A stretch of DNA of 64,000 nucleotides from Escherichia coli (GTDB taxonomy: Bacteria; Pseudomonadota; Gammaproteobacteria; Enterobacterales; Enterobacteriaceae). The position numbers were made by a program. Where the stretch lies: assembly GCF_017348835.2 (NCBI RefSeq), contig NZ_CP071375.1. One strand, 5' to 3'. Shown piece after piece: positions 30,001-33,000 of the stretch (the first letter of the stretch is position 1; every line of letters starts with the position of its first letter).

Positions 30001-33000
30001 ATTCGCTGCCAACATGCCGAACAGACTGCACAAAATGCGCCATTAAACCTGCAAACGCTGGAAGCTATCAGCGAATCTGTCCTGCAAGATGTCGCCCCGC
30101 GTTCTTCATGGCGGGCCAGTAAAGAGTTTCGTCTGCATCTCATCCAGACGATGACCAAAAAAGTGATTAGCGAAGCCGTCGCCGCGGCGGGGGGAAAATT
30201 GCAATGAATCACAGCGAAACAATTACCATCGAATGCACCATTAACGGGATGCCTTTTCAGCTTCATGCCGCACCAGGCACGCCGCTCTCGGAATTACTCC
30301 GCGAACAAGGACTGCTAAGTGTCAAACAAGGGTGCTGCGTGGGTGAATGTGGTGCCTGTACGGTGCTGGTCGACGGCACAGCAATAGACAGTTGCTTATA
30401 CCTTGCCGCCTGGGCTGAAGGAAAAGAGATCCGCACGCTTGAAGGTGAAGCGAAAGGCGGAAAACTTTCTCATGTTCAGCAGGCTTATGCGAAATCCGGC
30501 GCAGTGCAGTGCGGGTTTTGTACGCCTGGCCTGATTATGGCTACCACGGCAATGCTGGCGAAACCACGCGAGAAGCCATTAACCATTACGGAAATTCGTC
30601 GCGGACTGGCGGGAAATCTTTGTCGCTGCACGGGGTATCAGATGATTGTAAATACAGTTCTGGATTGCGAGAAAACGAAGTAAAAGGATATCCGGCCTGA
30701 ATTCAGGCCGGGTTCGCTGAGGTTATGTGTTTAACAACTCATATTTCTTAATCTTGCGATAGAGCGTAGCAATGCCAATGCCCAGTTCATCAGCAACTTG
30801 CTTCTTGCTGTTATGACGTGAAAGCGCCTCGCGGATCATTTGCTTTTCCATCTCCTCCAGCGCCGTGCCGCCCGCATCATCGAGTGACAGGTGCGCCTCA
30901 GTGACCTCTGTTACATCACTTTGCTCCGTTGTGCCATTATTCAGCAGATTTGGTGGCAATAGCGTGCTGTCGATAACTTCACCTGAAGGAACAACGTTAA
31001 CCAGATATTCCATCAAATTGCTTAACTCGCGCAGGTTTCCGGGCCAACGATGCTTACGCAATATTTCGACGACATCGGGAGCAATACCAGGATAAACCGA
31101 TCCCAGACGACGGGTATGCAGATGTAAAAAGTAATGCACCAGTAGTTCAATATCTTCCTGACGTTCACGCAGCGGTGGCAGAGTTATCGGGATAACATTA
31201 AGTCGGTAGAAGAGATCTTCGCGGAATTTACCTTCGGCAATGAACTGGGCCAAATTCTGGTTAGTTGCAGAAATGATGCGAATGTCGACTTGTATTGGGC
31301 TACTGGCACCAATCGGCAGAATTTCACGTGCCTCAATAGCGCGCAGTAATTTAGCCTGCAACATTAATGGCATATCACCTATTTCATCGAGAAACAGCGT
31401 GCCCGTATTCGCCGCCTGAATCAACCCTGTTTTACCGTTGGCAGAAGCGCCAGTAAATGCGCCTTTAACATAACCGAACAGTTCGCTCTCCAGAAGCTGC
31501 TCCGGAATCGCGGCACAGTTGATAGCAATAAAGGGTTTATTCCGTCTTCCGCTCAACTTATGGATTGCACGGGCGACAACTTCTTTACCCGTGCCGCTTT
31601 CACCAACCACCATAACGCTGGATGGGCTGGGTGCAATACGGCTAATGAGTCGTTTTAATTGCCGCATAACACGGCACTCGCCAACCAATTGTTCAATATG
31701 CGGTTCATCAGGTGCATTTGCTACAGAAAAACTGGTATGCGATTGGTGAAACGCCATTAAAAATAATTGTCGGCCCTGAATGTTATGCAATTGACCAATG
31801 ATTAATTCACTTTTATCGTCCCACGAAACAATATGCTGCATATGTCCATGGGTAAAATTACTCTCAAATGTTAATGGTCTGAAACGGATAGGTTTCCCAA
31901 TAATATTATTTTGCACAACACCAAGTGTTTTTAAGGCAGTCTGATTAACAAACTGAACCCGATTTTCGTCATCAACAACTAATACACCCTGATCCATATT
32001 ATCGATCATGGTCGCGAATATTTTACTGATGTTATCTCCTGGCCCCTGATCCTCCAGAAGTTTCGAAACAAAAATGGTGGATATATGGCGAACATAATCA
32101 GAAAATTCGCGTAAATTATCACTGATATGCTCTTGTTGCTCGTGGGTAACGGCAATCAAACTTATCACCCCAACACAACGATCCTGTAAAATGACAGGCG
32201 TACCCAGAAATGCTTTTTCGCGGCAATTTTCTTTACTATCGCAACCTTCGCAAAGGGGATCGAAGCGAGACTGTGTCACAACTTTTTCAGTTTTCGTTTC
32301 CAGGACGTGGCGGAGCAGGCGTGAGTTGCCGCTCAACTGGCGACCAAGAAACTTCCCATACGCGCCCGTTCCGGCGACGCGACACAAGTTTTCATCAACG
32401 ATCTCAACCTCAAGCTGCAAAACGCTGGCAAGCATTCTGGCAAAACGCTGAATTGTCGGTTGAATTTGCATCAATACTGACTGCGTAGTAGCAAGCTCCA
32501 TAGCTTTACCTTCCAGACTTACTTAAAAGTCGATCATTGAAGACGTTGATGGTTCACAGATCATGATGATATTAACTCAGGCGAAATTGGCTTTGATAAA
32601 AACATAAGATTTTTATCACTTTCTAATGAAATTATGGAAGAGATATCACATTTCTATATCAATATGAGAATTACGGCGGTGAGTTTATCAAACTGACGAG
32701 GGATAGCCTGCCCCTTTATCTTATTTCTGATACTTAGCAGCAAATAAATAACGCAATAAAAAAAGCCAAACGTTTTCGTATTTTACAAACAACCGGAAGC
32801 TGGCATCAATTTGTGATCAACCCCACACATTATCCGTCAAATTAGTCTTTTGCAGCCCCGTGGATAATTCTGGCACACTTATTGTTAGTCCCAGGTATAG
32901 CTGTGAAAACCACCAATCACTTTGGCAAGTCACAGTGAAATAAACCACTTTGCCTGTCATTCCACTACCGGGACTTTATGATGAAAACTGTTAATGAGCT

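What the first reader, a model, noticed from the sequence alone, without database searches (positions are those of the whole stretch)
32594..32618. Inverted repeat in the ygeV-ygeW intergenic region
TGATAAAAA-N7-TTTTTATCA (9-bp perfect arms) sits ~250 bp upstream of the candidate sigma54 promoter, a typical distance for an enhancer-binding-protein site. It is AT-rich and could be chance.
Basis: seen in the sequence. Interest (0 to 1): 0.25.

Follow-up and report, generated by a model that had tools for sequence, protein, structure and literature searches.

The report
Conserved inverted repeat upstream of ygeW
The inverted repeat is real and evolutionarily constrained in E. coli and its closest relatives. 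It is probably an outlying binding site, not the main one, for the regulator YgeV, which switches on the gut-bacterial uric-acid/purine breakdown genes and has no known DNA target.

Summary
The repeat TGATAAAAA-N7-TTTTTATCA is exactly at 32594-32618 in the E. coli ygeV-ygeW spacer. From sequence alone it is marginal: 5.5% of shuffled spacers contain an equal repeat.

Comparison with 11 other enterobacterial genera shows constraint. In the six closest genera, 14 of 18 arm columns are invariant, against 0 of 7 spacer columns and 9% of background columns. The arms decay in the six more distant genera.

The repeat lies 266 bp upstream of the ygeW sigma-54 promoter, which is ChIP-seq-verified in the literature. 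It is the distal member of a roughly 105-bp array of TGATA/TATCA elements. That array keeps its distance to the -24 element within about 3 bp in all 12 genera.

TATCA/TGATA is the most over-represented pentamer upstream of the cluster's four sigma-54 promoters. The element all four share, however, is a 13-bp palindrome, TATCA-N3-TGA(T/G)A, not this repeat.

Best reading (about 0.5, inferred): the repeat is an auxiliary YgeV site, perhaps also autoregulatory, and the palindromes are the primary sites. No YgeV site is described in the papers I searched.

Interest is modest.

The parts
32594..32602 (.). Left arm of the inverted repeat, TGATAAAAA. The core is TTGATA at 32593-32598.
   Evidence: 7/9 columns are invariant in the six closest genera. 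TTGAT is at least 90% conserved across all 12 genera.
32603..32609 (.). Spacer of the inverted repeat, CATAAGA.
   Evidence: 0/7 columns are invariant in the six closest genera, and the length is constant. One E. coli SNP lies at 32609.
32610..32618 (.). Right arm of the inverted repeat, TTTTTATCA. The core is TTATCA at 32613-32618.
   Evidence: 7/9 columns are invariant in the six closest genera. The variant I found in all three sampled one-mismatch E. coli genomes, C32619T, lies just outside the arm.
32559..32575 (.). Block A, GATCATGATGATATTAA. It is a one-mismatch copy of the 13-bp palindrome, and TGATAYTA is conserved. Read on the minus strand, TAATAT could be the -10 of a ygeV sigma-70 promoter (inference only).
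   Evidence: It sits 303-309 bp upstream of the -24 GG in all 12 genera.
32630..32672 (.). Block C, the most conserved part of the spacer. It contains TATCAC (32644-32649) and the 13-bp palindrome TATCAATATGAGA (32657-32669), which is the best candidate for the primary YgeV site.
   Evidence: Mean conservation across 12 genera is 0.87. The identical 14-mer TATCAATATGAGAA occurs upstream of ygfT. TATCAATATGAG occurs inverted upstream of xdhA.
32684..32698 (.). Block D, TTTATCAAACTGACG. With TGAGA/TGATA at 32665-32669 it forms a second dyad of the same geometry (N16).
   Evidence: TTTATCA is invariant in 12 genera. The dyad is a perfect TGATA-N16-TATCA in five of the six distant genera.
32764..32779 (.). 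PurR-box-like 16-mer, AGCCAAACGTTTTCGT.
   Evidence: It has 2 mismatches to ACGCAAACGTTTTCNT and is partly conserved in the closest genera. The consensus is quoted from memory.
32812..32827 (.). CRP-like site, TGTGATCAACCCCACA.
   Evidence: It starts at -60/-61 from the -24 GG in all 12 genera. PMC12507026 mentions a native Crp site in this spacer.
32870..32886 (+). Sigma-54 promoter of ygeW, CTGGCACACTTATTGTT. The -12 element is GT instead of GC.
   Evidence: It is a sigma-54 ChIP-seq site in Bonocora 2015. TGGCA...TTATTGTTA is invariant in 12 genera.
30723..32501 (-). ygeV, a PAS / sigma-54 AAA+ / Fis-type helix-turn-helix enhancer-binding protein.
32978..34168 (+). ygeW, a knotted carbamoyltransferase and the first gene of the ygeWXY-hyuA-yqeA operon.
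26818..26851 (.). Region upstream of xdhA with two inverted copies of the palindrome: TATCACATTGATT at 26818-26830 and ACTCATATTGATA at 26839-26851. They lie 127 and 106 bp upstream of the sigma-54 -24 GG (the promoter is at 26949-26965).
   Evidence: Both are conserved in Citrobacter amalonaticus and Trabulsiella. The sigma-54 site is in Bonocora 2015.
42506..42518 (.). Palindrome TATCATAATGATA upstream of ygfK, 177 bp upstream of the sigma-54 -24 GG (the promoter is at 42687-42703).
   Evidence: It is conserved in Citrobacter and Trabulsiella. The sigma-54 site is in Bonocora 2015.
57876..57888 (.). Palindrome TATCAATATGAGA upstream of ygfT, about 174 bp upstream of the weak sigma-54 site at 57694-57710 (minus strand).
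   Evidence: The sigma-54 site is in Bonocora 2015. I examined this region only after the motif had been derived from the other three promoters.

Best explanation
The inverted repeat is a functional protein-binding dyad. It has two TGATA/TATCA half-sites whose centres are 20 bp apart, about two helical turns, so they lie on roughly the same face of the DNA.

It is the promoter-distal member of a roughly 105-bp array of such half-sites (32593-32698). This array forms the upstream activating region of the sigma-54-dependent ygeW promoter.

The most likely binding protein is YgeV, through its C-terminal Fis-type helix-turn-helix. On this model the primary sites are the 13-bp palindromes TATCA-N3-TGA(T/G)A, which all four sigma-54 promoters of the cluster share. 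The repeat would be an auxiliary, lower-specificity site that helps the YgeV oligomer assemble on the array before it contacts sigma-54 holoenzyme by DNA looping.

The repeat lies only 92-116 bp from the ygeV start codon, and next to a conserved -10-like TAATAT on the ygeV strand. Occupancy may therefore also autoregulate ygeV, as reported for NorR and PspF (from memory).

Shown here or in the literature:
- the repeat exists;
- its arms are constrained while its spacer is free;
- the position of the array relative to the promoter is fixed;
- the half-site word is enriched;
- the palindrome is shared;
- sigma-54 occupies the promoter (literature).

Inferred: which protein binds, that the site is auxiliary, and autoregulation.
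For: 1. In the six closest genera 14/18 arm columns are invariant, against 0/7 spacer columns and 9% of background columns. The arm-to-arm distance never changes. This is the usual signature of a two-half-site protein target.
2. The repeat sits 275-281 bp upstream of the -24 GG in all 12 genera, and the whole array keeps register. The roughly 110 bp between the array and the CRP-like site is only about 50% conserved, and the distances to both start codons vary by about 20-30 bp. This suggests the array is phased to the sigma-54 promoter.
3. TATCA/TGATA ranks first of all pentamers upstream of the four sigma-54 promoters (19 observed, 4.9 expected, z = 6.4). It ranks ahead of the sigma-54 -24 word CTGGC and the CRP half-site TGTGA, which serve as internal positive controls.
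4. Three of the four exact window matches to TATCANNNTGAKA lie upstream of sigma-54 promoters, and xdhA has two one-mismatch copies. They are conserved across genera. All four promoters are sigma-54 ChIP-seq sites, and their genes fall in the 'YgeV iModulon'.
5. A second dyad of the same geometry, TGATA-N16-TATCA about 70 bp downstream, is perfect in five of the six distant genera, where the repeat has decayed. In the six genera where the repeat is intact, that second dyad is imperfect (TGAGA). This looks like turnover between equivalent sites.
6. The YgeV helix-turn-helix is invariant in all 12 orthologs, so a common half-site is expected.
Against: - No binding data for YgeV exist. A 2026 massively parallel reporter study found no consistent footprints for YgeV-iModulon promoters.
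- The TGATA-N15-TATCA geometry is unique to this spacer.
- Each arm is an orphan half-site. Neither arm completes a 13-bp palindrome; this is my own reading of the sequence.
- The repeat is degenerate in six genera whose YgeV helix-turn-helix is unchanged, so it cannot be essential for activation.
- 266 bp from the -24 element is further than the palindromes at the other three promoters (106-177 bp) and than the palindrome (209 bp) and block D (180 bp) in this spacer.
- The pentamer is AT-rich, and I noticed it before running the unbiased test.
- Autoregulation rests on an unmapped ygeV promoter.
Confidence: 0.5

Rival explanations
1. The repeat is an operator or promoter element for ygeV itself. 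It would be bound by a regulator other than YgeV, for example whatever mediates the reported indole induction of ygeV, or it would form part of the -35 region of a ygeV sigma-70 promoter. On this view it is unrelated to activation of ygeW.
For: - The repeat is much closer to ygeV (92-116 bp from its ATG) than to the ygeW promoter.
- A conserved TGATAYTA block reads TAATAT/TAGTAT on the ygeV strand. That would place the centre of the repeat near -44 of a hypothetical start site (the placement is inference).
- ygeV is strongly regulated by indole in EHEC (PMC9426417).
- The repeat is intact only in the clade of the six closest genera, as expected for a lineage-specific input.
Against: - The position of the repeat is locked to the sigma-54 -24 element within about 3 bp, while its distance to the ygeV start codon varies by about 20 bp.
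- It shares its half-site word with elements at xdhA, ygfK and ygfT, which have no adjacent ygeV.
- With the TAATAT -10, the best -35-like hexamer (TTATCA) needs a 19-bp spacer, which is poor.
- The consensus promoter scan found no sigma-70-like site here.
Confidence: 0.22
2. The repeat is a target of a nucleoid-associated protein (H-NS, Fis or IHF) or an intrinsically bent AT-tract. It would help DNA looping or silence the cluster, and would not be a sequence-specific regulator site.
For: - The arms are A/T-tracts (AAAAA / TTTTT) about one helical turn apart.
- TTGATAAAAA resembles the H-NS high-affinity motif TCGATAAATT at 7/10 positions (motif from memory, not tested).
- Sigma-54 promoters with distant activator sites often use a bending protein.
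Against: - The conserved positions are the outer TTGATA/TTATCA cores. The inner A/T-tract positions are the ones that vary (A to G, T to C).
- No IHF consensus (WATCAANNNNTTR) fits either arm, by inspection.
- The repeat lies distal to the other candidate activator sites. A bending site would be expected between them and the promoter.
Confidence: 0.1
3. The repeat has no function of its own. It is a chance AT-rich repeat that looks conserved only because close relatives were compared.
For: - 5.5% of shuffled spacers contain an equal repeat.
- Shuffles of the window average about 6 qualifying 9-bp arm pairs.
- No arm column is invariant across all 12 genera.
- Within E. coli, zero SNPs in 18 arm positions is not significant: about 1.2 are expected.
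Against: - In the six closest genera the background spacer is already scrambled, with 9% invariant columns. The arms are 78% invariant and the 7-bp spacer 0% (p = 2.6e-10 and 7e-4).
- TTGAT is at least 90% conserved in 12 genera.
- The arm-versus-spacer contrast ranks 16th of 452 windows in the spacer.
Confidence: 0.07
4. The repeat acts as a hairpin, either an RNA stem-loop in a long ygeV leader or a DNA cruciform.
For: - The predicted 10-bp stem is -6.5 kcal/mol on the ygeV-sense strand (z = -2.3) and -7.1 on the other strand. The DNA hairpin is -5.0 kcal/mol.
- Several arm substitutions (T to C at 32610/32611) would be G-U-compatible on the ygeV-sense strand. Trabulsiella has a change on both arms that keeps 9/9 pairing.
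Against: - The stem is weak and almost entirely A-U.
- Pseudocitrobacter breaks two pairs, and the distant genera have no complementarity.
- There is no Rfam match.
- There is no evidence that the region is transcribed.
- The substitutions lie at the inner arm positions, where a protein site would also tolerate change.
Confidence: 0.04

Closest known systems
NorR sites in the norR-norVW divergent spacer of E. coli
   Same: Both have an enhancer-binding-protein gene divergent from its sigma-54 target operon. Both have several short dyad sites forming one array in the shared spacer. In NorR the array overlaps the regulator's own promoter and gives negative autoregulation.
   Different: NorR sites are GT-N7-AC and lie closer to the promoter. 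Here the half-site is TGATA/TATCA, the repeat has a 15-bp gap between cores, and binding and autoregulation are untested.
PspF UAS I/II in the pspF-pspA spacer, and NtrC sites at glnAp2 (from memory)
   Same: These are multiple dimer sites upstream of a sigma-54 promoter that nucleate an oligomer acting by looping. In PspF the sites also autoregulate the divergent activator gene. Strong sites are accompanied by weaker auxiliary ones.
   Different: Those sites are compact dyads of about 17 bp, 80-140 bp upstream, often with an IHF site between. Here the array lies 180-300 bp upstream, no IHF consensus was found, and a conserved CRP-like site occupies the intervening DNA.
TyrR boxes (TGTAAA-N6-TTTACA), strong plus weak (from memory)
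   Same: TyrR is, like YgeV, a PAS/AAA+/helix-turn-helix regulator. Good palindromes lie next to poor ones that are filled only on oligomerisation. This is the model I propose for the palindromes and the repeat.
   Different: TyrR acts at sigma-70 promoters, and its boxes have a single fixed geometry. The repeat here has a different geometry from the 13-bp palindrome.
XylR/DmpR upstream activating sequences at Pu/Po (from memory)
   Same: They have TTGAT-containing half-sites, and the two sites are about 30 bp apart centre to centre. Several spacings in this array are also about 30 bp (32614 to 32644, 32657 to 32686).
   Different: They belong to a different regulator subfamily (V4R/XylR N-terminal domain) with an IHF-dependent architecture. 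No sequence relationship was tested.

Membership tests
Upstream activating sequence (UAS) of a bacterial enhancer-binding protein | Lies upstream of a genuine sigma-54 (-24/-12) promoter | tested here: met
   CTGGCACACTTATTGTT at 32870-32886 is a sigma-54 ChIP-seq site (PMC4591121) and is invariant in 12 genera. The repeat lies 266 bp upstream of its -24 GG.
Upstream activating sequence (UAS) of a bacterial enhancer-binding protein | Dyad symmetry suited to a helix-turn-helix dimer | tested here: inconclusive
   The arms are a perfect 9-bp dyad. However, the conserved cores are 20 bp apart centre to centre, twice the usual spacing for one dimer. The 13-bp palindrome at 32657-32669 fits a single dimer better.
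Upstream activating sequence (UAS) of a bacterial enhancer-binding protein | Conserved in orthologous regulator-target spacers | tested here: inconclusive
   The repeat is intact in 6 of 12 genera (14/18 arm columns invariant) and recognisable in relaxed form in 3. It is lost in 3, although the helix-turn-helix is invariant.
Upstream activating sequence (UAS) of a bacterial enhancer-binding protein | The same motif recurs at other promoters of the regulon | tested here: not met
   TGATA-N14-16-TATCA occurs only once in the 64-kb window. Only the pentamer half-site recurs. The element shared by xdhA, ygeW, ygfK and ygfT is TATCA-N3-TGA(T/G)A.
Upstream activating sequence (UAS) of a bacterial enhancer-binding protein | Fixed helical phasing or distance to the promoter and to neighbouring sites | tested here: met
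   The repeat sits at -275 to -281 in all 12 genera, and the array keeps register, despite about 50% identity in the intervening DNA.
Upstream activating sequence (UAS) of a bacterial enhancer-binding protein | Bound by the cognate enhancer-binding protein and required for activation | not testable with these tools
   No YgeV binding data appear in the papers I searched. Iwadate & Kato 2019 is not held in the library.
FNR/CRP-type site | TTGAT-N4-ATCAA or TGTGA-N6-TCACA spacing | tested here: not met
   The arms contain TTGAT and ATCAC, but they are separated by 15 bp, not 4 or 6. Genuine CRP-like sites lie elsewhere, at 32812 and 42609.
Fur box | Match to GATAATGATAATCATTATC | tested here: not met
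   The window has no match with 3 or fewer mismatches.
Structured RNA / intrinsic terminator | Stable conserved hairpin, a T-run, or a match to a known family | tested here: not met
   There is no Rfam hit and no terminator-like site. The stem is -6.5 kcal/mol and A-U-rich, and pairing is not kept in the distant genera.

The most novel reading that the evidence does not exclude
The array at 32559-32698 and the palindromes at xdhA, ygfK and ygfT together define the previously unknown DNA recognition code of YgeV (half-site TGATA). The repeat would represent a second binding mode, in which two half-sites two helical turns apart are bridged by a higher-order YgeV oligomer, not a single dimer. Evolutionary turnover would occur between this dyad and the equivalent TGATA-N16-TATCA dyad 70 bp downstream. 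This would give the first testable cis-regulatory map for the anaerobic urate/purine degradation regulon of gut Enterobacteriaceae.
Probability: 0.3. Interest if true: 0.55.

Novelty: new member of a known kind. Interest (0 to 1): 0.35.

Why it matters
The ygeW-ygfT cluster encodes the recently described anaerobic uric-acid/purine degradation pathway of gut bacteria, which is relevant to hyperuricaemia and gout. One group has already replaced part of this very spacer to force expression in a probiotic strain.

YgeV is the presumed activator of the cluster. Its inducer and DNA target are unknown, and a 2026 reporter screen failed to find footprints.

This analysis gives a concrete, conserved set of candidate sites. 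The main ones are the 13-bp palindromes, and the repeat is one outlying member. This turns 'what does YgeV bind?' into a simple gel-shift and reporter experiment. It also tells engineers which 105 bp not to delete.

On its own, the inverted repeat is a modest, ordinary kind of element.

Tried and rejected
- **Genome-collection scan with the YgeV protein.** Generic AAA+ patterns swamped it.
- **First protein search with E. coli YgeV.** It returned only E. coli variants. Repeating it with the Bisph1 ortholog gave the diverse genera used afterwards.
- **Two-species alignment.** It suggested the repeat was not conserved. The 12-genus alignment corrected this.
- **Fur box, FNR spacing and IHF consensus (by inspection).** All were rejected for the repeat. 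The FNR-like site upstream of xdhA is not conserved.
- **Hairpin or RNA element.** The stem is weak and there is no Rfam hit.
- **Small ORF.** No ORF of 20 aa or more overlaps the repeat. The 20-aa ORF over blocks C-D has an in-frame stop in Bisph1 and a 1-nt gap in Cedecea.
- **Sigma-70 promoter using the arms as a -35.** No acceptable -10 lies at 16-18 bp, and the consensus scan found nothing here.
- **My first choice of ygfK sigma-54 site.** TGGCAAGAGTGGTGCG (42679) was replaced by the conserved, ChIP-supported TGGTGCGATTGTTGCT.
- **Literature searches.** The searches for 'uacR' and 'ygeV / uric acid / sigma' returned mostly irrelevant papers.
- **Within-E. coli polymorphism.** It is too sparse to be informative: 0 SNPs in the arms against about 1.2 expected.
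Full report
**Context.** The window is E. coli and is 99.9% identical to an O157:H7 chromosome over the region. The finding lies in the 476-bp spacer between two divergent genes. 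One is ygeV (30723-32501, minus strand), a PAS / sigma-54 AAA+ / Fis-type helix-turn-helix enhancer-binding protein. The other is ygeW (32978-34168, plus strand), the first gene of ygeWXY-hyuA-yqeA. [quoted passage not shown] Its genes form a 'YgeV iModulon'.

**The observation.** TGATAAAAA-CATAAGA-TTTTTATCA is exactly at 32594-32618. It is the only match in the window even with three mismatches allowed. As bare sequence it is only marginally surprising. 5.5% of first-order shuffles of the spacer contain a perfect 9-bp inverted repeat with a spacer of 20 bp or less. Shuffles of the whole window average about 6 qualifying 9-bp arm pairs, against 33 observed at 13 loci.

**The promoter it was related to.** The candidate sigma-54 promoter is CTGGCACACTTATTGTT at 32870-32886. 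Its -12 element is GT, not the canonical GC. It is nevertheless listed as a sigma-54 ChIP-seq site for ygeW by Bonocora et al. 2015. That paper also lists CTGGCGTAAATCTTGCC (xdhA), GTGGTGCGATTGTTGCT (ygfK) and a weak site for ygfT (PMC4591121). I located all of these in the window. Genomic SELEX with sigma-54 holoenzyme also gives a peak in the ygeV/ygeW spacer (PMC8743547). The centre of the repeat is 266 bp upstream of the -24 GG.

**Conservation.**
- The single genome-collection scan gave only one ortholog. A two-species alignment suggested the repeat was not conserved.
- Using that ortholog as a protein query, I found YgeV orthologs in many enterobacterial genera. I fetched ten more loci, and all have ygeV divergent from ygeW.
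- In the 12-genus alignment the mean column conservation of the spacer is 0.63. The arms score 0.78 and 0.82, their cores TTGATA/TTATCA score 0.875 and 0.85, and the 7-bp spacer scores 0.51.
- The arm-versus-spacer contrast ranks 16th of 452 windows.
- The signal comes mainly from the six closest genera: E. coli, a Salmonella-labelled genome, Citrobacter amalonaticus, Pseudocitrobacter, Atlantibacter and Trabulsiella. Their YgeV is 77-89% identical to the E. coli protein.
- In those six, 14/18 arm columns are invariant, against 0/7 spacer columns and 19/208 background columns (Fisher p = 2.6e-10 and 7e-4). The arm-to-arm distance never changes.
- In Kluyvera, Raoultella and Cedecea a relaxed version (TGAY...TTTTCA) remains at the same place.
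- In Bisph1, Klebsiella aerogenes and Pluralibacter it is gone.
- Among six diverse E. coli genomes the only SNPs within the 31-bp query around the repeat are at 32609 (spacer) and 32619 (one base outside the right arm).
- The repeat is therefore a constrained element in the E. coli clade, not an accident.

**What surrounds it.** The repeat is the distal end of a block of conserved elements.
- Block C (32630-32672, conservation 0.87) and block D (32684-32698, 0.86) are conserved in all 12 genera. They are as conserved as the sigma-54 promoter itself, which scores 0.88.
- All of these elements contain TATCA or TGATA.
- Measured in each genome's own coordinates, the elements keep their distance to the -24 GG within about 3 bp in all 12 genera: block A at -303 to -309, the left arm at -275 to -281, the right arm at -255 to -262, C at -213 to -232 and D at -185 to -190.
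- A CRP-like site starts at -60/-61 in every genome.
- The DNA between these elements is only about 50% conserved. The distances to the ygeV and ygeW start codons vary by about 20-30 bp.
- An array of this kind, fixed in position relative to the promoter, is what one expects of an activator platform that must loop to a sigma-54 promoter.

**Link to the other promoters.**
- An unbiased count of all pentamers in the four sigma-54 upstream regions ranks TATCA/TGATA first (19 observed, 4.9 expected, z = 6.4). CTGGC (the sigma-54 -24 word) and TCACA/TGTGA (the CRP half-site) also rank high and serve as internal positive controls.
- The element actually shared is a 13-bp palindrome, TATCA-N3-TGA(T/G)A.
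- Exact matches in the 64-kb window are at 32657 (ygeW), 42506 (ygfK), 57876 (ygfT) and one inside dpaL (34502).
- One-mismatch copies occur twice, inverted, upstream of xdhA, and once in block A.
- The ygfT copy shares the 14-mer TATCAATATGAGAA with ygeW. I found it only after the motif had been derived from the other three promoters.
- The xdhA and ygfK copies are conserved in Citrobacter and Trabulsiella.
- These palindromes lie 106-209 bp upstream of the respective -24 elements.
- By contrast, the geometry of the repeat (TGATA-N15-TATCA) occurs nowhere else in the window. Neither arm completes a palindrome.

**A second dyad and possible turnover.** Block C's TGAGA/TGATA (32665-32669) and block D's TATCA (32686-32690) form a dyad of nearly the same geometry (N16). 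Its arms are conserved and its spacer is free. It is a perfect TGATA-N16-TATCA in five of the six distant genera, where the repeat has decayed. It is imperfect (TGAGA) in the six genera where the repeat is intact. This complementary pattern suggests the two dyads are equivalent sites for the same protein.

**Mechanism.** The YgeV helix-turn-helix (LGIGIATLYRKIKKY) is invariant in all 12 orthologs, so its target should be shared. My best-supported model is as follows.
- YgeV recognises TGATA half-sites.
- The 13-bp palindromes are the primary dimer sites at all four promoters.
- The repeat is an auxiliary dyad that helps assemble the oligomer on the ygeW array.
- Because the repeat lies 92-116 bp from the ygeV ATG, beside a conserved -10-like TAATAT on that strand, it may also autoregulate ygeV.

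Only the anatomy and conservation are shown. The identity of the binding protein and both functional roles are inferred (confidence about 0.5).

**Rivals, with my confidence in each.**
- A ygeV-specific operator for another factor (0.22).
- A nucleoid-protein or bending element (0.10).
- Chance plus shared ancestry (0.07).
- A hairpin (0.04). The stem is weak and A-U-rich, there is no Rfam hit, and pairing is not kept in the distant genera.
- Fur and FNR/CRP geometries do not fit.
- No ORF of 20 aa or more overlaps the repeat.

**Comparison with known systems.** In kind, this is the familiar layout of a divergent enhancer-binding-protein gene and sigma-54 operon sharing a spacer that holds several activator sites, as in norR-norVW or pspF-pspA (from memory). 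As a member of the class 'enhancer-binding-protein UAS', the repeat scores as follows.
- It meets the location and phasing criteria.
- It is inconclusive on dyad geometry and on conservation.
- It fails the recurrence criterion.
- It cannot be tested here for binding.

**Novelty and value.** I found no description of a YgeV binding site in the papers I searched. A 2026 reporter study explicitly reports no consistent footprints for this iModulon. The key 2019 paper on ygeV and urate is not held in the library. The repeat itself is a new member of a known kind and of modest interest. The palindrome/array model it led to is the more useful product, because it makes YgeV's target directly testable in a cluster of current biomedical interest.

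Noticed in passing
window 32657-32669, 42506-42518, 57876-57888, 26818-26830, 26839-26851: A 13-bp palindrome, TATCA-N3-TGA(T/G)A, lies upstream of all four ChIP-seq-verified sigma-54 promoters of the cluster (ygeW, ygfK, ygfT, and two copies at xdhA). Three of the four exact matches in the 64-kb window are at these promoters. It is the best candidate for the primary YgeV site.
   Followed up: yes
window 34502-34514: A perfect copy of the same palindrome (TATCATCTTGATA) lies inside the dpaL/ygeX coding sequence, about 1 kb upstream of ygeY. It could be chance or an internal regulatory site.
   Followed up: no
window 32812-32827 and 42609-42624: There are CRP-like sites between the upstream array and the sigma-54 promoters. 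The ygeW site starts at -60/-61 from the -24 GG in all 12 genera. The ygfK site is a perfect TGTGA-N6-TCACA and is conserved in three genera. A 2025 paper mentions a native Crp site in the ygeV-ygeW spacer.
   Followed up: partly
window 32764-32779, 42462-42477, 58036-58051: PurR-box-like 16-mers (2-3 mismatches to ACGCAAACGTTTTCNT, a consensus quoted from memory) lie upstream of ygeW, ygfK and uacT. These are three of the five such matches in the window. The ygfK copy is conserved in Citrobacter and Trabulsiella.
   Followed up: partly
window 32883-32884: The -12 element of the ygeW sigma-54 promoter is GT, not the canonical GC. TTATTGTTA is nevertheless invariant in 12 genera, and the site is occupied by sigma-54 in published ChIP-seq.
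   Followed up: partly
window 32910: The window has one extra C in the ygeW leader relative to five other E. coli genomes, and is also one base longer than the best O157:H7 match. This is either a strain-specific indel or a sequencing error.
   Followed up: no
window 26846-26859: An FNR-like site, TTGATACGTATCAC (1 mismatch), lies upstream of xdhA and overlaps the second palindrome. The FNR-like features are not conserved in Citrobacter or Trabulsiella.
   Followed up: partly
window 32634-32696: A 20-codon ORF (MEEISHFYINMRITAVSLSN) spans conserved blocks C and D. Bisph1 has an in-frame stop and Cedecea a 1-nt gap, so the conservation is better explained at the DNA level.
   Followed up: partly
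window 57824-57833: AGATAAAAAC upstream of ygfT matches the left arm plus one flanking base (TGATAAAAAC) at 9/10 positions, but it has no partner arm.
   Followed up: no
window 2027-2061, 4123-4148, 10376-10412, 42873-42907: Other perfect inverted repeats longer than the finding, with arms of 11-16 bp, occur elsewhere in the window. I did not examine them.
   Followed up: no
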